Part shown: positions 1,495-54,300 of the stretch, piece after piece | Layout of the letters: the number at the start of each line of letters is the position of its first letter | How positions within the stretch are numbered: the first letter of the stretch is position 1 | Assembly: GCA_016699365.1 (NCBI GenBank) | Contig: CP064973.1 | Span: 237,684-301,683 of the forward strand | Direction: 5' to 3' | Length of the DNA: 64,000 nt | Source: Candidatus Nomurabacteria bacterium | GTDB taxonomy: Bacteria > Patescibacteriota > Minisyncoccia > Phycocordibacterales > UBA9973 | Translations under genes and position numbers: made by a program | Notes under the pieces: generated by a model | What the model was told of the DNA's origin: nothing | Databases searched by the model: none | What the model saw: only the letters and a program-made list of their open reading frames with translations

Positions 1495-1644
1495 ATTTGT
1501 TTGAATTAGTGGGAATCTTTCCTTACAGGAACAGTGCACCTTTTCACTCCAATAAAATTGAAGCCTGAAAAGCTTTTCGATTCCTACACGCAAGCAAAGC
1601 AGTTTGCTTGCTCGGGAGGACAAAGCCTCGCTTCGCTCATTTTG

Positions 1645-1717
1645 TCCTCCCGGTAGGAATCGAACCTACGACCCTCTCCTTAAAAGGGAGCTGCTCTACC
1701 GACTGAGCTACGGGAGG
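1645..1717 (-). tRNA. tRNA-Lys (anticodon UUU)
   Basis: Hand-folded cloverleaf: acceptor CCTCCCG/CGGGAGG, D-arm GCTC..GAGC, anticodon loop CTTTTAA, T-arm GTAGG TTCGATT CCTAC. There is one G.A mismatch at the top of the anticodon stem. Confidence 0.7.
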
Positions 1718-2759: not shown

Positions 2760-3106
2760 TTGTGTATAATATATAGGAAGCACATAAAAAATTGCACCCA
2801 AGATTTCCCATTTAGGGATAAATATTTAAGGGATAGCAAAAAAATATCGAAACAGTTCATTATGTACGGAAATTATTATTATCCGTACCGGTTCTCAGTT
2901 TTTCTGTTCTTTAGGATAGGAGAAAGGGTCTCATGCATGTTGCGTAAACTTTACGCGCCATACACGAGGCCCTTTTTTTATTGTCTTTTTTAAATACCTT
3001 TAAAATCCCCAAAGGGTATTTTAACTTTTTATAATATAAGCCAAGGCGAGGGCCCAAAGGATTTTGAGTTCTTAAATAGCCTTACGCAGGCGGGTAGCCG
3101 AGCAGA

Positions 3107-3240
3107 GCAAAAATCCAGCAGGATTTTATGCGTGCTTTTTAAAAGTGATGGATAAAATAAAAGTTTTCCAGAAACTAAAGTCTGTATAACCACATACATG
3201 ATATGGGTTACAAAAAAAACAAAAACCCTTGCGGGTTTTT
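3107..3240 (+). repeat. conserved intergenic RNA-like element, copy A (5' hairpin, core, A-rich tract, terminator hairpin)
   Basis: Colinear homology with copy D (50361-50490, minus), copy B (12776-12908) and copy C (54194-54300). Core is aaaagtgaTGGATAAAAtaaaagTTTTCCAGAAACtaaag. Ends in aaaaaccc-ttgc-gggttttt. Confidence 0.5.
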
Positions 3241-3964
3241 ATGCCAAAGCCTTTAATATAAATAGTTCCAAATCTTTATCTAAATCCCTATTCCCACTTC
3301 TAGCCTCGTGATATATATGATTGAGTGATTCTAGGAAATAAGATAGTTCTATGTCAGAAAATTTATTTGTCATAGAGAGCGCTTTTTTATGGACAAATGG
3401 TGATAATTTTGTACTTTCAGGACTTAGTTTGTTTTGTTGTTGTTTATAAACAATCAAAGCATTTTTAATGGCCCAAAAAAGAGCAGGTATTATCTCCTCT
3501 GCAGAAACATTGTCATCTCGCATTTTTCTAAATATAATCCAAGCATTTTTCTTATCTCTAGAACCAAAACTATCTGTAAAAGAAAATATAACTGGTTTTT
3601 CTGCGACTTTCTTTTCTGTTTTAAAAAATTCTATTTCTGCATTTGCATGCTCCAGGTCTTTTAAAACTGGTTTTTTTAAATCAGTTTCCACTATGATAAA
3701 CAAATTTTCTGAATCAGACATTTCAGAAATCTTTTCCAAAACAAAAACACTTTTTTCTTCATTGTCTATCGAGTGTTTTAAAACCAAGGCTGTTTTGCTG
3801 CCAAATAAGTTAGAGCAATAAATTATAGAAGATAGAGACTGTGGAGATATGTCACTATCTGAAAAGTACTCAATATCAAATTGATCTTTTTTCAACTTTT
3901 CTAAAAAACGCTCAAGTGCTTTTGTGCGTTTTTCTATATCATTACCATAAAAAACATGTAGCAT
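3239..3964 (-). CDS. holA: DNA polymerase III delta subunit (HolA)-like
   Basis: 241 aa; N-terminal FYGND resembles the HolA YGxD start. Weak similarity only. Confidence 0.4.
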   Translation of the reverse strand: MLHVFYGNDIEKRTKALERFLEKLKKDQFDIEYFSDSDISPQSLSSIIYCSNLFGSKTALVLKHSIDNEEKSVFVLEKISEMSDSENLFIIVETDLKKPVLKDLEHANAEIEFFKTEKKVAEKPVIFSFTDSFGSRDKKNAWIIFRKMRDDNVSAEEIIPALFWAIKNALIVYKQQQNKLSPESTKLSPFVHKKALSMTNKFSDIELSYFLESLNHIYHEARSGNRDLDKDLELFILKALA

Positions 3965-7417: not shown

Positions 7418-9655
7418 TTAGTTGAAGTTTGGAGTTGGTCTACGTGTATATACTCTGCGTGCTAGATAAACTAGTGCAAATATAACAAGTATTAACAGCA
7501 ACCATCCAAGTAATGTATTCGGGAAGAATCCAAGACCTGAGAAGAATGCCAAACCTAGAAGCGGATTTCTACTTGTAGAAACACGATTCATCTCGTATGC
7601 AATAGCTTCTTGCTGAGCGCCTTTCGGGTCAGTATAAACTAGACTTGCAGTTGTAACGAGCAACTCACCTAGGCGCGCACTGTTTGCGACAACCCCTTGA
7701 ATGTAGAACGTACCGGTCTGATTTGGAATAAGTGTACCGAGTTGTATTGTTAGGGCGTGGTCAGCAAGTGAGTAATCACCTATTGAAGAATTTCTAAAGT
7801 TAATATTTTGTGGGAACAGAACACGAAGTGTTGCGTTTTGAAGTGTCTTTCCACTTATATTTTTGTAGATAAGTGTGTAGTCTACTATGTCTCCCATATA
7901 AACGTTTTCATATCGAGAGTCGATAGTAAGCATAATGTCTCCATTACCTGTACCTGTAGAGATAGTTGTACCTGTGTTGATAACAACTGGAACTACTGGA
8001 ACTGAGTATGAGAGTGTTCGGAATGTTAATACTTGTCCGTACTTCAATGTTCCATCATCTGCACGAACTACAGCTCTGTAATAATAAGTTGTATTAGCAA
8101 CTAAGCCTGTAGCAGTATTGAAGTATGAGAGTGTTGAATTAGTACCAAGTAATTGCTGTGATGAGTATAGACCCATGTAAGTTGTTGGTCCATATTCAAA
8201 CCATCCTGTAGGATTATCGTTTGATGTGTTGTAAACGAATCCAGAAAGTGTTGCAGATGTCTGTGTGATAGATGTAGCACTAACAGTAGAAACTGTTACG
8301 TTTGAATAATCAATATCTGGATTATCATTGTCGTCACTATCTGTAGTGAAACTCATGATAGATCCACAATCTTCTCCTAGATCACTTTCAGCACATGCGC
8401 GATAGTAATAGTCTTCATCTTCATCCAAACCAGTGATAGTCTCAGAAAATTCTTCTGTATCATCACTTGATATTGAACAAGATACATTTTCAGTTTCATC
8501 CAGGTCGTCGATTGCATCATTTGTACCCCATTCAAACCAACATGAATCAACTGAATCATCATTTGCATCTACTTCACCTCGAAGCGTTGCAGAGTCTTCA
8601 TCCACGTTGTCTTCTGAAAGAGTAGTAACACTTGGTTCTTGGTCAGATCCTGTGTCTTCTGTGCTTGTTTCAAAATGTAGAATAGATCCACAATCTGTAC
8701 CTTCAGCATTTTCAGCACACGCGCGGTAGTAATAATCTTCACCATCACTTAGACCTGTAAGATTTTCAGAAAATTCTTCTGTATCATCGTCGCCGATTGA
8801 ACATGATGCATCTTCTGTATTGTCTAGGTCGCCAACTGCATCATTTGTGCCCCATTCAAACCAACAGTTATCTATACTGTCTCCGTTTGCATCAGCCTCA
8901 CCACGCAATACTGCAGAATCTTCATCTACATCAACTGCTGATAGTGTAGTTGTATTTGGTGCACTTGCATCATCACCTCCATCATATGGAGATTCTGAAT
9001 CATCGTAGATACTGTCACAACTTGGATCATCCATGTCTGTATATCCATCTCCGTCGTTGTCTTCATTGTCATCACATTGTGCATCTCCGTCATCAGTGTT
9101 TCCACTAACTTTGAATTGAACACGTAGGTGACCTTGACTAGACCATCCTGGTGCAACTGAACCAATGTTTATTCCACTAGAAAATAGTGAGGAGTCACTG
9201 ATCGCAGAACCAGTAGTTGTTTGGTTTGGAAACCAAGTAGCAGAGTTGTCGATGTATGTTAGAGATTGTGAACTTGAAAGTGAAACACTAACAGAGTCTG
9301 AAAGACCTCCGTATCCATCGGCAGAGATACTACCAGTAAATGTATGTGAAGTACCTGTTCCAGTAGATTCTGGAGATACTTTCAATTTCACATTGTTTGC
9401 TGTTGTATTGCCAGTGTTGTGGTAATAAATATCAAAAGATATTGTCTCACCTGCATCTGCACTAACAGTAGTAGATATCCAATTCGTACCGTTTGGATAG
9501 TCTGAAACGTTCATGCCACGGAAAGTAGCATAGTCTTGTGGGTCATTGTTGAATGCCACAAAAGCAGCTGCCTCTGTAGGAAGTGCTGCAAATCCTAGAC
9601 CTAAAAAGGCTAGAAAAGAAAATGTGTATGCGATTTTTTTAATAAAGTTTTTCAT
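7418..9655 (-). CDS. large secreted surface protein with tandem FN3-like acidic repeats and C-terminal DUF11-like domain plus TM anchor
   Basis: Signal peptide. Repeat units of about 109 aa (DSA.LRGE.DAN.DS.D.CWFEWGTNDA...DYYYRACAE...DCGSI..F.T), two nearly identical and a degenerate third. Extremely Asp/Glu-rich. C-terminal hydrophobic anchor. Confidence 0.6.
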   Translation of the reverse strand: MKNFIKKIAYTFSFLAFLGLGFAALPTEAAAFVAFNNDPQDYATFRGMNVSDYPNGTNWISTTVSADAGETISFDIYYHNTGNTTANNVKLKVSPESTGTGTSHTFTGSISADGYGGLSDSVSVSLSSSQSLTYIDNSATWFPNQTTTGSAISDSSLFSSGINIGSVAPGWSSQGHLRVQFKVSGNTDDGDAQCDDNEDNDGDGYTDMDDPSCDSIYDDSESPYDGGDDASAPNTTTLSAVDVDEDSAVLRGEADANGDSIDNCWFEWGTNDAVGDLDNTEDASCSIGDDDTEEFSENLTGLSDGEDYYYRACAENAEGTDCGSILHFETSTEDTGSDQEPSVTTLSEDNVDEDSATLRGEVDANDDSVDSCWFEWGTNDAIDDLDETENVSCSISSDDTEEFSETITGLDEDEDYYYRACAESDLGEDCGSIMSFTTDSDDNDNPDIDYSNVTVSTVSATSITQTSATLSGFVYNTSNDNPTGWFEYGPTTYMGLYSSQQLLGTNSTLSYFNTATGLVANTTYYYRAVVRADDGTLKYGQVLTFRTLSYSVPVVPVVINTGTTISTGTGNGDIMLTIDSRYENVYMGDIVDYTLIYKNISGKTLQNATLRVLFPQNINFRNSSIGDYSLADHALTIQLGTLIPNQTGTFYIQGVVANSARLGELLVTTASLVYTDPKGAQQEAIAYEMNRVSTSRNPLLGLAFFSGLGFFPNTLLGWLLLILVIFALVYLARRVYTRRPTPNFN
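8296..8953 (-). repeat. tandem coding repeat (about 327 bp period, 2 near-identical units) inside the surface protein gene
   Basis: Protein residues about 235-343 and 344-453 are near-identical; the DNA is correspondingly duplicated. Confidence 0.6.
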
Positions 9656-46939: not shown

Positions 46940-47029
46940 AAAATGACAGAAATCTTTGACAAAATATTATTAAATCCAACAAAACCCATTATATACTTGA
47001 TTTTACTGGAATACAAGTAGTATAAATCA

Positions 47030-47772
47030 TTGACATTTAACTTCAGTCGTGTTACACTATCTCCAGATAAGTTCGATGAAGAAATCCAATCGAGGTGAGA
47101 TTACCGGAAGTTGCGTGGTTGCCATTTCTGGTAACCTCCCTTCGATTAGGGAAAAGATTCACGTTGAATAGATTGCTCATTATCTAAAAGGCGCACCAGG
47201 CGGATCTGGTGGAACCACAAAAATGAGTAGGGCGAGTCTTCACAGATTTTCCTAGAGTCTACAAAAAACACTTCCGAGGTTCGTTGTCGAACAAAGAATG
47301 TTTTAAATCGGGTCCCGTGTATGGATTCTAGCCACACAGCTGTGTAGGAGTGATCGATGGCCTTAAAAAGCTGGAGATTGCGTACGGAATTCATACCTTG
47401 GTGTAGCTCTAAAGTTTTCGGAAAAGGGATTGCCAATGTGTCCGTGGCACCCTTTTCTCGAAGATAGATTAAGTTGATCTTTTTCAAAGCAAAAATATGG
47501 GTGACCTTACCCAACCTGTCAGAGACAGGCAAAGGCTATGCATCTTCACAATAAAGCTGGATTGATTCTGGCCTGAATCAATCACAACTTTAGCGTATCC
47601 AAGTTTTTCGGCAGCGGTACTCGTTTGCAGCTTGACTGCAAACGAGGATTCCCTCAAAAACTAAAGTGGAGGCTCGCAATCTCTACAGGAAAAACTTACA
47701 GTACCGGCGGGTACTGCAAAGTAATGAAGAATGGACGATCGCAATTGTCGGTCGTCCTTTTTATCCAGACTA
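47030..47772 (+). ncRNA. candidate large (about 700 nt) structured non-coding RNA with sigma70-like promoter and intrinsic terminator; class unknown
   Basis: TTGACA (47030-35), 17 nt spacer, TACACT (47053-58). No credible plus-strand ORF. GC visibly higher than the neighbours. Several perfect hairpins, for example ctcgtttgcag/ctgcaaacgag (11 bp), gattgattc/gaatcaatc (9 bp) and gtacc-ggcg-ggtac. The terminator is ggacga..tcgtcc + TTTTTAT at 47733-47762. Confidence 0.3.
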
Positions 47773-47831
47773 CAATTTCGATTGCGGTTTGGTAGAAAGT
47801 AAAAAGTTCTTTTCACTTACAAAATAAATAA

Positions 47832-48230
47832 ATGAAATCCACAAAGAGTTACGTAAAAGAATTGGAAGATTTACTTGGACCAGTCGATGAAAAAATAACA
47901 AAGGAGGTAAATGACCACTTTGAAAAAATAGAACAACAATATAAATGGATGGAAGAAAATAATATTCCACAAGATTTGAGGAAGTATTATTTTGATCTTG
48001 AAGTTTTGAAGACACATGACTACAAGCCTGTAGCTGTAACTACAATGATGTGCGAAAACACTTTTGTTTTTGAAACAGAAGATGAAGCAATTAGAGCATT
48101 TGAACAATTTGAGAAACATCCAAGCGGTGAATATATATCAGGTTGGTGGTACAGCAGAGAATCTTTTGATAGCTCAATCAAAGAGTATGCAAAAGAGGTT
48201 GGCTATGATCCGAAAGTTATCTGGTTCTAA
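47832..48230 (+). CDS. hypothetical protein
   Basis: 132 aa ORF; acidic; no recognised motif. Confidence 0.35.
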   Translation: MKSTKSYVKELEDLLGPVDEKITKEVNDHFEKIEQQYKWMEENNIPQDLRKYYFDLEVLKTHDYKPVAVTTMMCENTFVFETEDEAIRAFEQFEKHPSGEYISGWWYSRESFDSSIKEYAKEVGYDPKVIWF

Positions 48231-48252
48231 ATCTAAAAAATTAAAAAAACTT

Positions 48253-48414
48253 ATGGAAAACACATTGGACAAAATTGACCTTCAAAAAGAGGCTGACAAA
48301 TTACTTTTGAAAAACGGTTTTCAAACAACCGGCGATAAAAAAAAGAGGATTTGCAAAGCACAAAGATTTTTTGAGAAACGTATTTTGATAACACCAATGG
48401 GGCATAAGAGATAA
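48253..48414 (+). CDS. small (53 aa) basic hypothetical protein
   Basis: Internal Met start (MENTLDKIDLQ...) of ORF 48064-48414, chosen to avoid overlap with the upstream gene. Speculative. Confidence 0.2.
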   Translation: MENTLDKIDLQKEADKLLLKNGFQTTGDKKKRICKAQRFFEKRILITPMGHKR

Positions 48415-48649
48415 GTTGTACATGTCGGACGGGTAACCTGTATAACCCATCACCGTTCCACGAAGGGTATGGGGGCCGACATCCTGGGAAATGAGAAGTG
48501 GTCAAATGAACCGCTTCTCATCTTTATCAGACTCATGAGTTTGTTTCGTGGGTCTGTAGAGATATTGAAGTATAAACAGAGAGCATTGCGTAGGCACTGC
48601 AGTGCTCCGTGTTTGTTCTTTAAATAGTTTCACGAGTAAAAATCTATAT

Positions 48650-48889
48650 ATGGATATTCAGAAGTTAAACTCAGCTATCGGTAAAAAAGTATTTGTCGTA
48701 TCGCTCCGTATGAGAGTAATGCGAGTGAGTGATTATGGAAAACTCGAAATGGTAAATGAACCAAACAATATTATTTTGGCTAAAATGCCGTTTGGAGACA
48801 GCATAATCCCATTTGATGAAATCTTAAAGGTCTATGATGATCAAGGTTATGTTGTTTACGACAATGAGCCTTCTAAAAAGAAGAAATAA
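48650..48889 (+). CDS. small hypothetical protein
   Basis: 79 aa from MDIQKLNSAIGKKVFVV... Preceded by the AGTTTCACGAGTAAAA motif that is shared with the next gene. Confidence 0.3.
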   Translation: MDIQKLNSAIGKKVFVVSLRMRVMRVSDYGKLEMVNEPNNIILAKMPFGDSIIPFDEILKVYDDQGYVVYDNEPSKKKK

Positions 48890-48991
48890 CCTGATACGAA
48901 GATATATTCCATACGTTTAGTCAGTTTCACAAGTAAAACGAAAAAAGACAAAAGAAACGTTACACAAAACTAAACTAAAAAACGTAAACGT

Positions 48992-49324
48992 ATGGAAAGA
49001 GAAACTTTTACCGTAACCCTTTGGTTCAAGGAAACAAAGGACGGGAAACGGGAGCGACCTGTTTCACTTACTTATCATCTCGACGGCTTCTATAGCAAGA
49101 AGCAAACCAATCTACTCTATAAAATATATTCTGATGTTTATGGTCAGATAAGTATGAGTGGGTATGGATGGCTCGATGAAGCGGTAGTGTGTATATGGAT
49201 TCTCCCTAAACAACCTTTTCTCCCTTCTACATTGCGCTACTGTGAAACAGTGAAGGCTTGGCTCGATTTTATTGAGTTTCAAGTTTCTGTAACAGTCAGC
49301 ATATTGTATGAGAAGGAAAGTTAA
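48992..49324 (+). CDS. small hypothetical protein
   Basis: 110 aa; upstream motif AGTTTCACAAGTAAAA (48911-48926). Confidence 0.3.
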   Translation: MERETFTVTLWFKETKDGKRERPVSLTYHLDGFYSKKQTNLLYKIYSDVYGQISMSGYGWLDEAVVCIWILPKQPFLPSTLRYCETVKAWLDFIEFQVSVTVSILYEKES

Positions 49325-49380
49325 TTCAAAGAAGGGAGCAATCCCTTCTTTTTTCATTTAATTTTTTAAAACAAAAAATT

Positions 49381-49542
49381 ATGAGCAAGAACAAGAAAAA
49401 TATTCGTATTGTAATCAAGAAAGATTTAGCAAAAGACAATCGTGAGATGTCCAGAAATGTATTTGCTAATGTAAATGTAAAAGAGAAGTCATTCAAGGAT
49501 AAGTCCAAATATACAAGAAAGGTAAAACATAAAGACACTTGA
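49381..49542 (+). CDS. small (53 aa) highly basic protein
   Basis: MSKNKKNIRIVIKKDLAKDNREMSRNVFANVNVKEKSFKDKSKYTRKVKHKDT. Its stop codon lies inside the -35 box of the downstream promoter. Confidence 0.25.
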   Translation: MSKNKKNIRIVIKKDLAKDNREMSRNVFANVNVKEKSFKDKSKYTRKVKHKDT

Positions 49543-49810
49543 CAAACACTAGCTACAATGTTATACTACTCCTAGCTCAATAAAAGAGCTTATATTGATC
49601 CGGCAGCCGTGTTGGCGTCCGCTAGCTTTCGCAAGAAAGCCCGTGGACTAGAACAACCGGCATAATTAGGTCAGGGCGATAATGATGAGAACGAATTCTT
49701 GATTCTAAACCATGTGGGGTTTGGAAAAGATATGAAGGGAAGCCCTAAAACAAATTGCGATGTGCCATGGCCTATCGCGCCCCCGAACTTTTTAAGTTTG
49801 GGGGTTTTTT
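49539..49810 (+). ncRNA. candidate sRNA/leader (about 240 nt) with consensus sigma70 promoter and intrinsic terminator; class unknown
   Basis: TTGACA (49539-44), 17 nt spacer, TATACT (49562-67). GNRA hairpin GCTTTC-GCAA-GAAAGC. Long-range pairing GGGCGATA/TATCGCGCCC. Terminator cccccgaactt..aagtttggggg + T7 at 49779-49810. Longest internal ORF is 28 aa. Confidence 0.35.
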
Positions 49811-49828
49811 TATGTTAAAATTCATAAT

Positions 49829-49986
49829 ATGACAAATCCAAAATACACACCCGAGGAATACAAAGAAATAGTCGAGAAGATAAAAAATGGTACTGCAACA
49901 GAGTCCGAGATAAAAGATATCGAGGAACTTGTTCGCAACGCAACAATCGAGATTAATAATATTTTAGAGGAAGACAAGAATTAATT
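49829..49986 (+). CDS. small (52 aa) acidic hypothetical protein
   Basis: ATG-to-TAA ORF MTNPKYTPEEYKEIVEKIKNG... immediately after the terminator. Speculative. Confidence 0.2.
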
Positions 49987-49987
49987 T

Positions 49988-50362
49988 ATGGACAAAGAAC
50001 CAACACAAAATACAATAGAGAATACAGAATCAGTGGATATGGAACAGTTTGGTGAGAATATAAAAAATGCATCTCCAAGTACTCTTCTAAAAATAAAAGA
50101 GGTTATGAAACGCCCTGAAACATGGACTGGTATAGCGACCATGGTAATGGGAAGCATCGTAGGAGTACAGGTATTTGAACATAGTGAGGTGGTAAAAGAA
50201 AACTGGGATGATCTAGGGAAAAGCGCAGAAAGTTTTCGAGGCGTTTTAAATGCTTATAAGGTTTTTGCTTCTGGTGTGTTCACAATGGGAGTCCTAGTAA
50301 CAATGCTTGGGATAAGTAAAGGTGGTGATATTGCAAAACAAAAAGCTAATTTAGAACAATAA
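49988..50362 (+). CDS. hypothetical protein with two hydrophobic segments
   Basis: 124 aa ORF. Confidence 0.35.
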   Translation: MDKEPTQNTIENTESVDMEQFGENIKNASPSTLLKIKEVMKRPETWTGIATMVMGSIVGVQVFEHSEVVKENWDDLGKSAESFRGVLNAYKVFASGVFTMGVLVTMLGISKGGDIAKQKANLEQ

Positions 50363-50490
50363 AACCCGCAAGGGTTTTTGTTTTTTATAACCTATACCAC
50401 GCACTCGGTAATCTAGAGTTTATTTACCGGAAAATTTTTCTCTTATCCACCACTTTTAAAAAGCACACATAAAATCCTGCTGGATTTTTG
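50361..50490 (-). repeat. conserved intergenic RNA-like element, copy D (minus strand)
   Basis: Its reverse complement aligns base-for-base with copy A across roughly 130 nt, including the 5' hairpin aaaatccagcaggatttt and the terminator aaaaaccc-ttgc-gggtttt. Confidence 0.5.
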
Positions 50491-50813
50491 CTCAACTCGC
50501 GCCGGCCGCGCTCCGTCAGGCTTTTTAGAAAGTGTGGATTTATTTATATAGGAATTCAGAATCCTTGAGCCCAGGCTTTGCCCTTCAATTCCACGAGTAT
50601 ACGAACAAACGAGGACGAACGTTCCGTAAGGAAAAAGTATTCTGTTTGAGACAGCAGGCGAGTTAATACTTTTAGTGAGTCCGAGTTTTGTGAGTATTCG
50701 TGGGATTGAATGCAAAGAGGTTTTTGTGTTACTTTTTTGAAAAATTAACGATTAAAAAACAAAGAAAAATTCCGCAAAGCGGAATTTTTCTTTTGTTCAG
50801 TCTGATTTCAAAC

Positions 50814-52340
50814 CTATCTCGCGTATTCGATAACTCTCGTTTCTCGAATCAAAGTCACCTTAATCTCACCTGGATATTTCAATTCAGATTCAATTTTCTT
50901 TGCGATATCACGAGCCATCTCCTTTGCTTCTACATCGCCAACTTTTTCTGGAGTTACGAATAGTCTGATTTCACGTCCAGCCTGCAATGCGTATGATTTC
51001 TCTACACCATCGAAGTTGTTTACAAGTGCTTCAAGTTCTGCAAGACGACGAAGGTAGTTTTCGACACTGTCGCGTCTAGCACCAGGACGTCCTCCAGATA
51101 TATAGTCAGCTGTTTGTACTATCACAGCTTCAATAGTTTCGTGAGGTACATCATCATGGTGAGATTTCATCGCTGTAATTACGCGTGGGTCAGCGCCAAA
51201 TTTTTGAAGTATTCGAATACCAATGTCTATGTGTGTACCTTGCACCTCATGATCAAGTGCTTTACCTATATCGTGAACAAGTGCACCTGCTTTTGCTATT
51301 TGTACATCAGCCCCAAGTTCCTCGGCAATCATACCTGCGATATGGGTCATCTCGATAGAGTGTTGGAGTACGTTTTGTCCATAACTTGTACGGAAATATA
51401 GACGTCCGATTATAGCTACTATACGAGGGTCGAAGTTGAATATTCCACATTCGTAAACTGCTTGCTCACCCTTTTCTTTGATAATTTTATTTATATCTTC
51501 TTTTGCTTTGTCTACCATCTCTTCGATCTTTGCTGGCTGGATACGTCCATCAAGAATCAGGTTTTCAAGTGCAAGGCGTGCTATCTGTCTACGTACTGGA
51601 TCAAAGCTAGATATAACAATAGTTCCAGGTGTGTCGTCTACGATTAGCTCCACTCCTGCAGCGCGTTCAAACGCTCTGATGTTGCGCCCTTCTTTTCCTA
51701 TAATTTTTCCTTTGATTTCGTCGTTTGGAATAGTTACGTTTGTTGCCATAAGCTCGGCTGCAGTCGAAGACGCAAGACGTTGGATAGATGTAGACAATAT
51801 ATCTTTGGCTCTAGAGTCTAACTTTTCTTGACCAGATTGTTCTAATTTTTGCATACGAACAAGAAGGTCTTCTTCGTAATCTTTCTCTATAGTGCTCATA
51901 AGCTCAACCTTAGCATCCTCTCGAGTTAGTTTTGACACACGTTCTAGTTCTTTGTGTTTTTCTTCTTCTAGTTCAACTGTCTTTTCTTTTATTTTTTTTA
52001 TCTCTTCAACTTTTAGTTTTATATTTTCAACCTCTCTATCTATTTCAGTTTGGCGTGCATCTAGAAGCTCCTCTTTTTTGATTAGTCTTTTTTCGGTTTC
52101 TTTGAATTCTATTTCACGATTTTTCTCTTCTTTTTTAAGTTCTTCGTCACGCTCCTCGGCCTTTTTCTTGGCTTCGTCTGTTATTCTCTGTGCTTCCTCT
52201 TTTGCAGAGATCAGGATCTTTTTGATCTCAAGCTCCATTGAGCCCTTTTGTCCAAGGGCTATGATTAGTCGGAGATAATATCCGACGGCAACTCCCACGA
52301 CTAGAGCTAGTCCTAGGAATGCTAATAAATGTAAATTCAT
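50814..52340 (-). CDS. rny: ribonuclease Y
   Basis: 508 aa; N-terminal TM; coiled-coil; KH domain; HD domain (HSIEMTHIAGMIA...VHDIGK). Confidence 0.85.
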   Translation of the reverse strand: MNLHLLAFLGLALVVGVAVGYYLRLIIALGQKGSMELEIKKILISAKEEAQRITDEAKKKAEERDEELKKEEKNREIEFKETEKRLIKKEELLDARQTEIDREVENIKLKVEEIKKIKEKTVELEEEKHKELERVSKLTREDAKVELMSTIEKDYEEDLLVRMQKLEQSGQEKLDSRAKDILSTSIQRLASSTAAELMATNVTIPNDEIKGKIIGKEGRNIRAFERAAGVELIVDDTPGTIVISSFDPVRRQIARLALENLILDGRIQPAKIEEMVDKAKEDINKIIKEKGEQAVYECGIFNFDPRIVAIIGRLYFRTSYGQNVLQHSIEMTHIAGMIAEELGADVQIAKAGALVHDIGKALDHEVQGTHIDIGIRILQKFGADPRVITAMKSHHDDVPHETIEAVIVQTADYISGGRPGARRDSVENYLRRLAELEALVNNFDGVEKSYALQAGREIRLFVTPEKVGDVEAKEMARDIAKKIESELKYPGEIKVTLIRETRVIEYAR

Positions 52341-52611
52341 GTAATCGTTGTCTACTTACGAGGGTATTTCGCTTTTTGAGTGATTTTTATTTGAATTTGA
52401 GTATTTTTTGGGTTCATTTTGTTTCGTTTCAGAGATTTTCCTTCAAAAAAGCGTTTAAAATCTAGTAAGTAAAAGTAATTGTTTATAAGTTCGATGCTTT
52501 TATATTAGCACACCTTTTTTGTTGTGTCATTGAATCTATTGACATGAAGACGAAATAGTTATTTTTATATACCAATACAAAACCCCTCGCAGTTGCGAGG
52601 GGTTTTGTATT

Positions 52612-53196
52612 TTATGCTTTTGCTTTTGTTATTACTTCATCTATAAGTCCGTATTTCTTGGCCTCATCAGAGGTCATAAAGTAATCTCGGTCTGCATCGG
52701 CTTCAACTTTAGCAAGTTTCTGACCAGTATGCTTTGACAGAAGTTCGTTCAACATTTTCTTCATACGTAATAGTTCACGAGTTCGGATCTCAACATCACT
52801 TGCTTGACCCTCAGCTCCACCGAGCACTTGGTGAATCATCATGCGAGAGTTTGGTAGAGCAAAGCGCTTGCCTTTTGCGCCACCTGCAAGCAAGACTGCC
52901 CCCATAGATGCCGCCATACCGACACATATAGTAGTAACATCAGGCTTTATGAACTGCATTGTGTCGTATATTGCCATACCTGCTGTAACAGAACCTCCTG
53001 GGGAGTTGATGTATAGCTGAATATCTTTCTTTGGATCTTCGTGTGCAAGGAAAATAAGCTGAGCAATAACAAGGTTTGCAGTATAGTCGTTCACCTCGTC
53101 GTTTAGGAATATAATACGCTCTTTTAAAAGACGAGAATATATGTCATATGCTCGTTCGCCAAATTGGGATTTTTCTAAGACTGTTGGGATTAACAT
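52612..53196 (-). CDS. clpP: ATP-dependent Clp protease proteolytic subunit
   Basis: 194 aa; catalytic Ser region GMAASMGA and His region MIHQ. Confidence 0.9.
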
Positions 53197-53373
53197 ATTG
53201 AGTAGGTGTCAGGTTATAGGTATTAGGAAATAGTAATAAATACACTGAAATTCCTATAAGACAAGGTCATTATAGCAGAAAACAGGGGTGTTCGGGAGGG
53301 CTTGACAAATGGGGTGTATGTGTGCTATACTACATGAGTAAAAGTTCTTAAACTAAACTAAAAAACCAAAGAT

Positions 53374-54060
53374 ATGAAGATAGCAATTATCACTTTTTCT
53401 TTCATTTTTTCAATTTTCTTTTTAACTTCTTGCGGCTATGATGGTCAAAAGACTAGAGCGGCCGATATGCAAAACCAGCCAGCAGGTGCTGATGCGGACA
53501 ATGCTACATTTTCGGGAACCGCTAATGGTATAGCATTCGATGAGATGACTTTACCGTTCGTTTTGTGTGGAGGTTCTGAAACCAGTTATGCCCGTATGGC
53601 TGACAAACATGAAGCAACGAAGTATAACAACTTTGTAGACGCTTATGGTAGTCAGGTTTGGGTAAAGGTGCGAATCATCCATCCGATTTGGTGGAATGGT
53701 CGCGAGATTCGGTTTGAGATCGTTGACTACGGCCTTACAAAAAAAACCGAATCGGCCTGTGATTGCCAGGAAAAGGAAGAGGTAACTCCTCCTACTCCTC
53801 CGGTGATTAAAGAACCAACTCCGGTAAAAGAAAAACCGGCAGTAGTAAAAGAAGAGCCCACACCTGTGGTTAAAGAAATCAAAAAGGAGATTGCGGCCAA
53901 AGATCTCCAGCCTTGTTTTAAGGCTAAAGATTACGAAGTGATCACGATTATCAAAGAGAGAGGGAAAGTGGTTTCAGAAACCACAACTAATCTCGGAGAT
54001 GTTGTGGATGCTGGTGGTCCATCTTTACCAGACAATGAGGTGGACGCCGGTGAAAATTAA
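53374..54060 (+). CDS. lipoprotein with Pro/Lys/Glu-rich repeats
   Basis: Signal peptide with lipobox FLTSC; PTPPVIKEPTPVKEKPAVVKEEPTPVV repeats. Confidence 0.45.
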   Translation: MKIAIITFSFIFSIFFLTSCGYDGQKTRAADMQNQPAGADADNATFSGTANGIAFDEMTLPFVLCGGSETSYARMADKHEATKYNNFVDAYGSQVWVKVRIIHPIWWNGREIRFEIVDYGLTKKTESACDCQEKEEVTPPTPPVIKEPTPVKEKPAVVKEEPTPVVKEIKKEIAAKDLQPCFKAKDYEVITIIKERGKVVSETTTNLGDVVDAGGPSLPDNEVDAGEN

Positions 54061-54193
54061 TTTGGTTAGAGCTTTTTGCCAGCTCGGCCCGCGAATTTAT
54101 TTCGCGGGTTTTTTTATTGTCCACAACTTCTTTAATGTATTTGATAACTCAGAGTTTTGTTTCTAGAAAAATATTTTTCATCCTCACCCTTTA

Positions 54194-54300
54194 AAAGTAG
54201 TGGATAAAAGAAAGGTTTTCCAGAAACCAAACTTTACACAACCACGAACGTGATACAGGTTTTGTATAAAAGAAAAAATCCCCGGAGGGGGATTTTTTCT
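54194..54300 (+). repeat. conserved intergenic RNA-like element, copy C
   Basis: Core agtaGTGGATAAAAgaaagGTTTTCCAGAAACCaaac; terminator aaaaaatccccggagggggatttttt. Confidence 0.5.

What the first reader, a model, noticed from the sequence alone, without database searches (positions are those of the whole stretch)
49539..49810. Roughly 240-nt transcription unit with textbook TTGACA-17-TATACT promoter and strong terminator but no ORF: candidate sRNA
This is the best promoter match in the window. It is followed after about 205 nt by an 11-bp GC-rich hairpin and T7. Inside are a GNRA-capped hairpin (GCTTTC-GCAA-GAAAGC), a GTCCGC/GTGGAC helix flanking it, and a long-range GGGCGATA/TATCGCGCCC pairing. 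The longest internal ORF is 28 aa. It sits in the small-gene-rich region next to the other ncRNA candidates. It is not recognisably SRP, 6S, tmRNA, or a riboswitch class I know.
Basis: seen in the sequence. Interest (0 to 1): 0.6.

Follow-up and report, generated by a model that had tools for sequence, protein, structure and literature searches.

The report
Hypervariable structured small RNA gene
This is a real, previously undescribed non-coding RNA gene of about 240 nt in an uncultured CPR (Nomurabacteria-like) bacterium; its helices are kept by compensatory mutations, yet its sequence and even its domains differ sharply between strains that are otherwise 99-100% identical around it.

Summary
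Window 49539-49811 carries a TTGACA-17-TATACT promoter with a TG extension, a structured body of about 200 nt, and a 12-bp hairpin followed by T7. No ORF is conserved.

I found 12 distinct homologues in syntenic loci of related Nomurabacteria-like genomes. They fall into four structural subtypes, and one locus carries two tandem copies. All share the promoter and a 5'-terminal hairpin with a (G/A)AUAAA(G/A) loop. Between that hairpin and the terminator lies a variable string of GC-rich hairpin domains joined by A-rich linkers.

- **Structure:** covariation supports it (87.5-88.8% of cells paired against 27-51% in slid controls; 11-25 compensatory pairs; 0/500 shuffles).
- **Known families:** no Rfam family matches.
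- **Not a leader:** the downstream gene p51 has its own conserved extended -10 exactly 7 nt before its ATG (a leaderless mRNA). p51-p124 also occurs without the RNA in other genomes.
- **Hypervariable setting:** the RNA lies inside a sharply bounded 2.4-kb cassette. Flanks are 99-100% identical between strains, the RNA about 60%, and alleles are mosaic.

Best reading: an independent, trans-acting structured sRNA gene of unknown function, probably recognised through its conserved 5' hairpin. It is a new family of a known kind.

The parts
49539..49567 (+). Sigma-70-type promoter: -35 TTGACA (49539-44), 17-nt spacer with TG extension (49559-60), -10 TATACT (49562-67). The stop codon of the upstream small basic protein p53 (49381-49542) overlaps the -35 box.
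   Evidence: 11/12 matches, TG present. The promoter is conserved as cTTGACAAAnAnTAG..TGcTATACT in all 12 homologues.
49574..49590 (+). P1: a 5'-terminal hairpin, AGCUC-AAUAAAA-GAGCU, that starts at the predicted +1 (7 nt after the -10). It is the family signature; the other 11 members have a GAUAAAG loop.
   Evidence: The stem covaries: the third pair from the loop is U-A in 6 members, G-C in 5 and C-G in 1. The loop is almost invariant.
49606..49661 (+). Domain 2. The closing helix P2 is GCCG-u-GUUG (49606-14) with CAAC-CGGC (49654-61). Inside it are helix GUCCGC/GUGGAC (49617-22 / 49643-48) and the apical hairpin GCUUUC-GCAA-GAAAGC (49625-40, a GNRA tetraloop).
   Evidence: The P2 and P2a helices carry compensatory changes in relatives (for example UACUGGU/GCCAGUA in L084b). 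The GNRA cap is kept in 11 of 12 copies.
49674..49745 (+). Domain 3. The long-range helix P3 is GGGC (49674-77) with GCCC (49742-45), followed by an A-run (UAAAAC). It encloses purine-rich strands (GAUAAUGAUGAG... and ...UAUGAAGGGAA) and the long hairpin P3a: UCUU-ga-UUCUAAACC (49697-49711), loop AUGUGG, then GGUUUGGAA-AAGA (49718-30).
   Evidence: P3 is 100% paired, with a U-A / U-G / C-G series in types A and A'. Type B has GAGAC/GUCUC at the homologous place. P3a appears.
49756..49779 (+). P3c: a hairpin, UGCGAU...AUCGCG, lying directly against the terminator.
   Evidence: Helix 7 (91% paired; 6 of 9 pairs have compensatory changes across the 12 members).
49779..49811 (+). Intrinsic terminator: a GC-rich stem of 11-12 bp, a 3-nt loop and T7. 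The RNA 3' end is at about 49811.
   Evidence: A terminator is present in all homologues with a different stem sequence (helix 8, 6 of 9 pairs compensatory).
49813..49831 (+). Context, not part of the RNA: the downstream gene p51 has its own extended -10 (TG-T-TAAAAT, 49813-21) exactly 7 nt before its ATG (49829), which implies a leaderless mRNA.
   Evidence: The same arrangement is found in 12 loci, including four that lack the RNA.
48037..50430 (.). Context: a hypervariable cassette that contains the RNA. It runs from the 3' part of p132 through p95, p110, p53, the RNA and p51 to p124.
   Evidence: Window against L085 is 99-100% identical outside the cassette and 36-92% inside it. L086 switches allele at about 49740.

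Best explanation
This is an independent gene for a structured non-coding RNA of about 238 nt (window 49574-49811, + strand). A strong sigma-70-type promoter embedded in the last codons of the upstream small basic protein gene (p53) drives it, and an efficient intrinsic terminator ends it.

**Design.** The transcript begins with a hairpin (P1) whose 7-nt A-rich loop is conserved throughout the family. Then come two or more GC-rich hairpin domains separated by A-rich linkers, a last hairpin, and the terminator. The helices are kept by compensatory substitutions, while the sequences, and even the number and type of domains, differ between strains.

**Setting.** The gene is one module of a 2.4-kb hypervariable, recombining cassette of small genes, set between flanks that are nearly identical among strains.

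**Most likely mechanism (inferred).** The RNA acts in trans as a stable, abundant, folded RNA. A conserved partner recognises it through the invariant 5' hairpin loop. That partner is most plausibly a protein, and the always-adjacent basic protein p53/p56 is the obvious candidate. The variable body gives strain-specific properties.

**Shown:** the promoter, terminator and hairpin anatomy; homology of 12 copies; covariation; absence of a conserved ORF; independence from the downstream operon; hypervariability and mosaicism.

**Inferred:** that it is expressed, that it acts in trans, that it binds a protein, and what its biological role is.
For: **Anatomy:**

**Homologues in synteny (p53/56, RNA, p51, p124):** L001, L081-L086, L098, L099, L339 and L340.

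**Homology of the subtypes.** A covariance model built only from types A and A' finds type B at E 1e-16 to 4e-26 and type C at E 2e-5 to 1e-7, all full length. It finds nothing else convincing in 1.38 Mb of related CPR loci.

**Covariation.**
- MAFFT alignment of 5 sequences: 87.5% paired against 27-51% slid; 11 compensatory pairs against 2-3 slid; 0/500 shuffles.
- Model-fitted alignment of 12 sequences: 88.8% paired against 29-46% slid; 25 compensatory pairs against 3-7 slid; 0/500 on all five measures.

**Thermodynamics.** The comparative model is within 3 kcal/mol of the MFE.

**Not coding.** No ORF is shared across the types.

**Independent unit.**
- p51 has its own extended -10 exactly 7 nt before its ATG in 12 of 12 loci, with or without the RNA.
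- p51-p124 occur without the RNA in L066, L095, L096 and L100.
- L084 carries two complete promoter-RNA-terminator units in tandem.

**Hypervariability.** Flanks are 99-100% identical, while the RNA halves are 0.61 and 0.63 identical between window and L085. L084a and L086 are mosaics.
Against: - There are no expression data.
- Without the terminator, excess folding stability is modest. The body z-score runs from -1.0 to -4.8 and is -2.55 in the window.
- Only 12 sequences from one narrow clade are available, several of them closely related. Covariation events are therefore few and not all independent, and the 12-sequence alignment was fitted to the model.
- Nothing shows protein binding. The p53 model is of low confidence (pLDDT 61), and no family or PDB match exists.
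- p53-like genes occur without the RNA in L003 and L342.
- Transcripts of p53 may also read into the RNA, because no terminator separates them. The RNA could therefore be partly a 3' UTR.
Confidence: 0.6

Rival explanations
1. RNA determinant of a strain-specific immunity, incompatibility or toxin-antitoxin-like cassette. On this reading the RNA is the antidote or specificity component of the hypervariable island, with one of the small proteins (for example the membrane protein p124) as effector, and diversifying selection drives its divergence.
For: - The promoter-RNA-terminator-ORF layout resembles type III toxin-antitoxin loci (established knowledge of ToxIN).
- The island is sharply bounded and hypervariable between 99-100% identical flanks, with mosaic alleles.
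- p124 is the fastest-evolving gene, at 36% amino-acid identity to L001 against 96% for RNase Y.
- p51 and p53 have weak similarities to uncharacterised phage protein families.
Against: - There are no tandem repeats in the RNA.
- No PADLOC, Pfam or NCBIfam hit links any island protein to a toxin or defence system.
- No antisense complementarity beyond chance exists between the RNA and neighbouring genes.
- L086 combines the window-type RNA with the L085-type p124, so the RNA and p124 alleles are not tightly matched.
- p51-p124 exist without the RNA in other genomes.
Confidence: 0.15
2. Cis-regulatory leader (riboswitch or attenuator) that controls read-through into p51 and p124.
For: - The RNA lies directly upstream of p51-p124 on the same strand, and its terminator ends 18 nt before the p51 ATG.
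- The G-rich 5' strand of P3 could alternatively pair with the first bases of the terminator's 5' arm in several members.
Against: - p51 has its own conserved extended -10 at leaderless distance in all loci.
- p51-p124 occur without the RNA.
- No ligand-pocket-like core is conserved; only the 5' hairpin loop is invariant.
- Whole domains differ between strains of one species.
- Complete tandem units occur in L084.
- The alternative pairing is only 4-5 bp against a terminator stem of 9-12 bp, and it is not conserved in type B.
- No riboswitch family in Rfam matches.
Confidence: 0.08
3. Structured 3' UTR of the p53 mRNA (a stabiliser or terminator region) rather than a separate gene.
For: - No terminator lies between p53 (which ends at 49542) and the RNA.
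- p53/p56 and the RNA are adjacent in all 12 RNA-bearing loci.
Against: - A near-consensus promoter with a TG extension is conserved exactly at the p53 stop codon in all copies, at a fixed distance from P1.
- About 200 nt of covarying structure is far more than a terminator needs.
- The second copy in L084 is preceded only by a fragment of p56.
Confidence: 0.1
4. Small protein gene or genes hidden in the transcript.
For: Three type-A copies share an ORF that starts in the P3a loop (MDLSEELRGDPKQ..., 15-26 aa). The three substitutions between them are synonymous or conservative.
Against: - That ORF is absent from the window's copy and from types A', B and C.
- Its C-terminus and length vary.
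- The type-C ORFs are out of frame between members.
- The same substitutions are compatible with helix P3a and the purine-rich strand.
Confidence: 0.03
5. Functionless transcribed spacer: a promoter and a terminator bracketing fast-drifting DNA in a recombination hot spot.
For: - Sequence turnover is extreme.
- Excess folding stability is modest in several alleles (z about -1).
Against: - Compensatory changes keep the helices.
- G+C is 46-60% in a genome region of about 37%.
- The P1 loop is invariant, the promoter and terminator are intact in every allele, and GNRA caps are retained.
Confidence: 0.04

Closest known systems
Bacterial sRNAs with their own promoter inside the end of the upstream coding sequence ('type I' 3'-UTR-derived sRNAs such as MicL or DapZ; from my own knowledge)
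   Same: The promoter is embedded in the 3' end of the preceding ORF. The terminator is Rho-independent and can be shared with the upstream mRNA. The sRNA is a separate transcript.
   Different: Those sRNAs are shorter, act through a conserved single-stranded seed with Hfq, and are conserved in sequence. This RNA is about 240 nt and almost fully structured, has no conserved seed apart from a hairpin loop, and is hypervariable.
Type III toxin-antitoxin antitoxin RNAs (ToxI, CptI, TenpI; from my own knowledge)
   Same: The order is promoter, non-coding RNA, intrinsic terminator, downstream ORF, and the location is variable accessory DNA.
   Different: This RNA has no tandem repeats. The downstream gene has its own promoter. 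No ToxN-like protein is present.
phi29-family prohead RNA (pRNA; from my own knowledge)
   Same: It is an abundant structured RNA of similar size made from a strong promoter, and relatives keep the secondary structure while the sequence diverges almost completely.
   Different: There is no phage packaging context. The covariance model found no members in viral contigs. The architecture is a string of hairpins, not a 5'/3' closing helix with a three-way junction.
Orphan structured RNA motifs of Rfam, such as the raiA motif RNA, and 6S RNA
   Same: These are stand-alone, GC-rich, GNRA-capped structured RNAs of about 200 nt, of unknown or regulatory function, in AT-rich genomes.
   Different: There is no Rfam match at any threshold. 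The fold is not a 6S-like rod with a central bubble. Those families have conserved cores, whereas here only the 5' hairpin loop is invariant.

Membership tests
Any Rfam 15 family (SRP, 6S, tmRNA, RNase P, riboswitches, T-box, raiA, ROOL, HEARO and the rest) | A covariance-model score at or above the family's gathering threshold | tested here: not met
   Over the whole window at gathering thresholds, only six tRNAs are found. In 47000-51000 at E<=10, there are only terminator-driven hits far below threshold. Seven loci carrying other variants, searched at E<=1, give nothing in the RNA.
Independent bacterial sRNA or ncRNA gene | Its own promoter and its own intrinsic terminator, conserved in homologues | tested here: met
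   for the window. The promoter and terminator are present in all 12 copies.
Independent bacterial sRNA or ncRNA gene | A secondary structure supported by covariation, and no conserved ORF | tested here: met
   0/500 shuffles; the slid controls are far lower; no shared ORF.
Independent bacterial sRNA or ncRNA gene | A discrete stable transcript is observed | not testable with these tools
   No transcriptome data are available here.
Riboswitch or transcription-attenuation leader | The downstream gene depends on read-through (it has no promoter of its own), and the element always accompanies the regulated gene | tested here: not met
   p51 has a conserved extended -10 exactly 7 nt before its ATG in 12 of 12 loci. 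p51-p124 occur without the RNA in L066, L095, L096 and L100.
Riboswitch or transcription-attenuation leader | A conserved ligand-binding core, and a conserved, mutually exclusive antiterminator | tested here: not met
   Only the P1 loop is invariant. Domains are swapped between strains. The candidate alternative pairing is short and not conserved.
Type III toxin-antitoxin antitoxin RNA (ToxI-like) | Tandem direct repeats of about 34-36 nt that are processed by the toxin | tested here: not met
   TRF finds no array, and there are no direct repeat families in the window's RNA.
Type III toxin-antitoxin antitoxin RNA (ToxI-like) | A downstream ToxN, CptN or TenpN-type endoribonuclease | tested here: not met
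   p51 and p124 have no significant Pfam, PADLOC or NCBIfam match.
Type I toxin-antitoxin antisense RNA or cis-antisense sRNA | Extended complementarity to a neighbouring mRNA | tested here: not met
   The longest perfect complement within about 3.5 kb upstream and 3 kb downstream is 8-11 nt, no longer than the longest matches obtained with shuffled RNA (10-16 nt).
6S RNA | A long rod closed by 5'/3' pairing, with a large central bubble | tested here: not met
   The consensus structure is a series of local domains, and the 5' end forms its own hairpin. RF00013 gives no hit.

The most novel reading that the evidence does not exclude
The locus encodes an RNA-based strain-specificity determinant. 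A conserved 5' hairpin 'handle' is bound by a conserved partner. The structured body is exchanged as modules between co-existing strains and is kept polymorphic by diversifying or frequency-dependent selection, for example as an RNA decoy or immunity factor against phages or competitors of these episymbiotic CPR bacteria. That would be a kind of hypervariable structured-RNA system with no described counterpart.
Probability: 0.2. Interest if true: 0.85.

Novelty: new member of a known kind. Interest (0 to 1): 0.6.

Why it matters
Almost nothing is known about non-coding RNAs in CPR (Patescibacteria) bacteria, which have tiny genomes and few regulators. Here is a clearly delimited RNA gene with covariation support and no match to any described family.

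Its evolution is unusual. Strains whose flanking genes are 99-100% identical carry RNA alleles only about 60% identical, with whole domains swapped or duplicated. Meanwhile the promoter, a 5' hairpin loop and the terminator stay fixed. A conserved handle joined to a variable structured body, inside a recombining cassette, points to selection on strain-specific function, and the pattern can be tested with metatranscriptomes and population genomics.

The same 4-kb neighbourhood holds two further strongly structured non-coding regions, so the locus may be a useful entry point to CPR RNA biology.

Tried and rejected
- **Direct sequence search in the rny loci.** blastn and nhmmer of the RNA against 80 RNase-Y-anchored loci found nothing. 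Synteny, not sequence, revealed the L001 counterpart.
- **Metagenome scan with p51 peptide patterns.** It returned 600 pattern matches, and none was a relative.
- **DNA pattern of promoter plus GATAAAGGA.** In metagenome and viral contigs it gave more than 230 hits, essentially all a promoter followed by a ribosome-binding site. The single hairpin-forming hit (L171 = L249) is a short 5' UTR ahead of a gp55-like gene in a T4-like phage, which is a coincidence.
- **P1 16-mer in viral contigs.** Hits were at chance level and the covariance model confirmed none of them.
- **Borderline model hit at L001 13253-13429.** It is only a terminator plus gaps.
- **Hammerhead-like and C/D-box or K-turn-like readings of the UGAUGA...GAA strands.** I rejected these because the motif is not conserved (L084b and L339 lack it) and Rfam gives no ribozyme hit.
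- **CsrA-sponge idea (GGA motifs).** By my own rough estimate from base composition the number of GGA motifs is not enriched, and the window's P1 lacks GGA.
- **SRP domain IV.** AGGUCAGG is present, but the GGAA/AGCA motifs are absent and Rfam gives no hit.
- **Local GGG-loop-CCC hairpin predicted by RNAalifold.** I replaced it with the long-range P3, because type B keeps the flanks but has GAGAC/GUCUC at that place.
- **Structure prediction of p53.** The model confidence is too low to use, and there is no sequence match in the PDB.
- **Single-sequence MFE folds.** They disagree outside the obvious hairpins.

Full report
**1. The observation**

- The consensus scan finds TTGACA (49539-44), a 17-nt spacer and TATACT (49562-67), with a TG extension and 11 of 12 matches.
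- It also finds a terminator-like hairpin at 49779-49805 (12 pairs, 6 G-C, 3-nt loop) followed by seven T.
- Promoter-like sites as a class are not enriched in the region (9 found against 11.1 expected). Terminator-like sites are enriched (12 against 3.1).
- The promoter is not uniquely the best in the window. Five sites reach 11/12, and a second TTGACA/TATACT site with TG lies at 53302. Promoters of the form cTTGACAAA...TGcTATAcT are common in this lineage.
- The GNRA hairpin GCUUUC-GCAA-GAAAGC and the GUCCGC/GUGGAC helix are present.
- The unit folds better than shuffles (z = -4.06), but much of this comes from the terminator. The body alone gives z = -2.55.
- The internal ORFs are short.

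**2. Organism and known families**

The neighbouring RNase Y gene places the window in a CPR bacterium of the Paceibacterota / Nomurabacteria group. One protein cluster names the source as 'Candidatus Nomurabacteria bacterium', locus tag IPJ63.

Rfam 15 finds only six tRNAs in the whole window at gathering thresholds. It finds nothing meaningful at E<=10 around the candidate, and nothing in seven loci carrying other variants of the RNA. Literature searches found no description of such an RNA in CPR bacteria.

**3. Finding the homologues**

Sequence searches of 80 RNase-Y-anchored loci found nothing. Synteny was the key.

L001 has an RNase Y that is 96% identical. Its homology with the window runs through the upstream small ORF and the promoter, then stops. 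What follows in L001 is about 270 nt of unrelated, GC-rich non-coding sequence and a terminator, and then homologues of the two downstream ORFs.

Protein searches with the flanking genes p124, p51 and p53, followed by contig look-ups, produced further loci with the same gene order. In all there are 12 distinct RNA copies:

| Type | Members |
|---|---|
| A' | window (identical to L086), L084a |
| A | L085 (identical to L087-89 and L093), L084b, L339 |
| B | L081, L082, L083 |
| C | L001, L098, L099 (L341 is a truncated, L099-like copy), L340 |

Lengths are 223-327 nt and G+C is 46-60%, in a genomic region of about 37% G+C. L084 carries two complete promoter-RNA-terminator units in tandem. The junction between them fuses the first codons of p51 to the end of p56.

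A covariance model built only from types A and A' recovers type B (E 1e-16 to 4e-26) and type C (E 2e-5 to 1e-7) at full length. It finds no other convincing copy in 1.38 Mb of related CPR loci, and exactly one in the window. A borderline hit in L001 is only a terminator.

Pattern scans of metagenome and viral collections gave only promoter-plus-RBS false positives and one coincidental phage 5'-UTR hairpin. On the evidence available, the family is confined to a narrow clade.

**4. Anatomy**

All members share four elements:

- the promoter, whose -35 overlaps the stop codon of p53/p56;
- hairpin P1, starting at the predicted +1, with an almost invariant loop (GAUAAAG in 11 copies, AAUAAAA in the window) and a covarying stem;
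- a variable series of GC-rich hairpin domains, each closed by a helix followed by an A-rich linker, usually with GNRA caps;
- a last hairpin (P3c) lying against an intrinsic terminator.

In the window the helices are:

| Helix | Coordinates |
|---|---|
| P1 | 49574-49590 |
| P2 | 49606-14 with 49654-61 |
| P2b | 49617-22 with 49643-48 |
| P2a | 49625-40 |
| P3 | 49674-77 with 49742-45 |
| P3a | 49697-49730 |
| P3c | 49756-79 |
| Terminator | 49779-49811 |

All pairs are canonical. The model refolded with these helices enforced comes to -80.5 kcal/mol, against an MFE of -83.5.

Type B has the domain-3 module twice. Type C has a different set of domains. Across the family, the only conserved single-stranded element is the P1 loop.

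**5. Covariation**

On the MAFFT alignment of the five type A and A' sequences, the curated structure has 87.5% of cells paired, against 27-51% when partners are slid by 1-3 columns. It has 11 pairs with changes on both sides, against 2-3 in the slid controls. No shuffle out of 500 reaches the observed values for four of the five measures.

P3 is 100% paired, with U-A, U-G and C-G at its variable pair. Type B has GAGAC/GUCUC in the homologous position.

On the model-fitted alignment of all 12 copies, 88.8% of cells are paired against 29-46% slid, and 25 pairs are compensatory against 3-7 slid. No shuffle out of 500 reaches the observed value on any of the five measures.

Three caveats apply. 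There are few sequences. Several are closely related, so events are not all independent. The second alignment leans towards the model.

**6. Not a leader, not coding, not antisense**

- **Not a leader.** The p51 start codon lies exactly 7 nt after a conserved extended -10 (TGnTAAAAT) in 12 of 12 loci, including four without the RNA. This indicates a leaderless mRNA from its own promoter. p51-p124 occur without the RNA in L066, L095, L096 and L100. A p53-like gene occurs without it in L003.
- **Not coding.** No ORF is shared across the types. A short ORF is shared by three type-A copies only.
- **Not ToxI-like.** There are no tandem repeats.
- **Not antisense.** Complementarity to neighbouring genes does not exceed chance.
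- **No help from the neighbours.** The flanking small proteins have no informative family matches. There are only weak sub-threshold hits of p51 and p53 to uncharacterised phage families. p53 gives no usable structure model and no PDB relative.

**7. The hypervariable cassette**

Window and L085 are 99-100% identical from 45937 to about 48030 and from about 50430 to 53715, and rny is 99% identical between them. Inside 48037-50430, identity falls to 36-92%. The two RNA halves are 0.61 and 0.63 identical.

L086 is identical to the window up to about 49740, the 3' end of the RNA, and then carries the L085-type p51/p124 allele. L084a is a mosaic: its 5' half is 58% identical to the window and its 3' half 92%.

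So the RNA is one module of a recombining, strain-variable cassette of small genes. Its divergence reflects allelic diversity, not long separation of the genomes.

**8. Interpretation**

*Shown:* a conserved promoter-RNA-terminator unit with covarying helices, no conserved ORF, independence from the downstream operon, and modular hypervariability.

*Inferred:* it is an abundant trans-acting structured RNA. A conserved partner recognises its invariant 5' hairpin loop, and its body provides strain-specific properties. The always-adjacent basic protein p53/p56 is the obvious candidate partner, but that is untested.

The rivals are an immunity or toxin-antitoxin-like RNA, a leader, a 3' UTR, a small protein, and a functionless spacer. 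They are listed with their evidence in the rival explanations.

**9. Verdict**

It is a new family of stand-alone structured bacterial ncRNA. The function is unknown, and the evolutionary behaviour is unusual and testable.

Noticed in passing
window 46960-47830 (+): A gene-free stretch with its own TTGACA-17-TACACT promoter (about 47030) and a terminator (47733-47757). The 871-nt fold gives z = -9.09. It is 100% identical in L085 and L086 and has no Rfam match. Similar promoter-plus-start sequences recur in many Paceibacterota loci. It is probably a widespread large ncRNA of unknown class.
   Followed up: partly
window 50400-50800, with partial copies at 3099-3225 (inverted) and 54190-54277: A conserved, strongly structured non-coding block (z = -6.51) with partial repeats elsewhere in the window. 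In L001 and L081 the block sits in another place or orientation, and in L001 rny is inverted relative to its flanks. It may be a repeat that mediates inversion, or another ncRNA.
   Followed up: partly
window 1644-1717 (-): ARAGORN calls this a tRNA with anticodon UUA ('Stop'). The Rfam alignment places the anticodon loop as CUUUUAA, that is UUU (Lys) with a mismatched first stem pair. It is probably tRNA-Lys, not a suppressor.
   Followed up: partly
window 49813-49831 and 11 related loci: p51 appears to be translated from a leaderless mRNA. A conserved extended -10 lies exactly 7 nt before the ATG, and no Shine-Dalgarno sequence is present.
   Followed up: yes
window 48037-50430: A sharply bounded hypervariable cassette of small genes (the 3' part of p132, then p95, p110, p53, the RNA, p51 and p124) between flanks that are 99-100% identical among strains. 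Alleles are mosaic (L084, L086).
   Followed up: yes
L003 13418 and 14554 (+), L098 1629 (-), L084 603 (+); window 48546-48559 (-) with one mismatch: A recurring non-coding motif, CUCUACAGAAYCACGA...UCUGAUAAAGAG, whose hairpin loop resembles the P1 loop. Its meaning is unknown.
   Followed up: no
window 8358-8960: A tandem duplication with a 324-nt period and 72-80% identity.
   Followed up: no
L342 4153-4870 and L343 274-990: A distant p53-like gene (P0018) is followed by about 700 nt of GC-rich, hairpin-rich non-coding DNA containing GGGAAGCCUUAAAAC. That resembles the domain-3 motif of the window's RNA, but the covariance model does not hit it.
   Followed up: partly
L084 3729-3738 against 3844-3853: The type-A P3a loop UGGAUUUGUC is perfectly complementary to the first codons of the leaderless p51 mRNA (GACAAAUCCA) in L084. 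There is one mismatch in L085 and L339 and no counterpart in the window. The length is within chance expectation.
   Followed up: partly
L090, L092, L094 (short ENA contigs): Several independent assemblies break inside the RNA, just before or within domain 3. That is what co-existing divergent alleles in one sample would cause.
   Followed up: no
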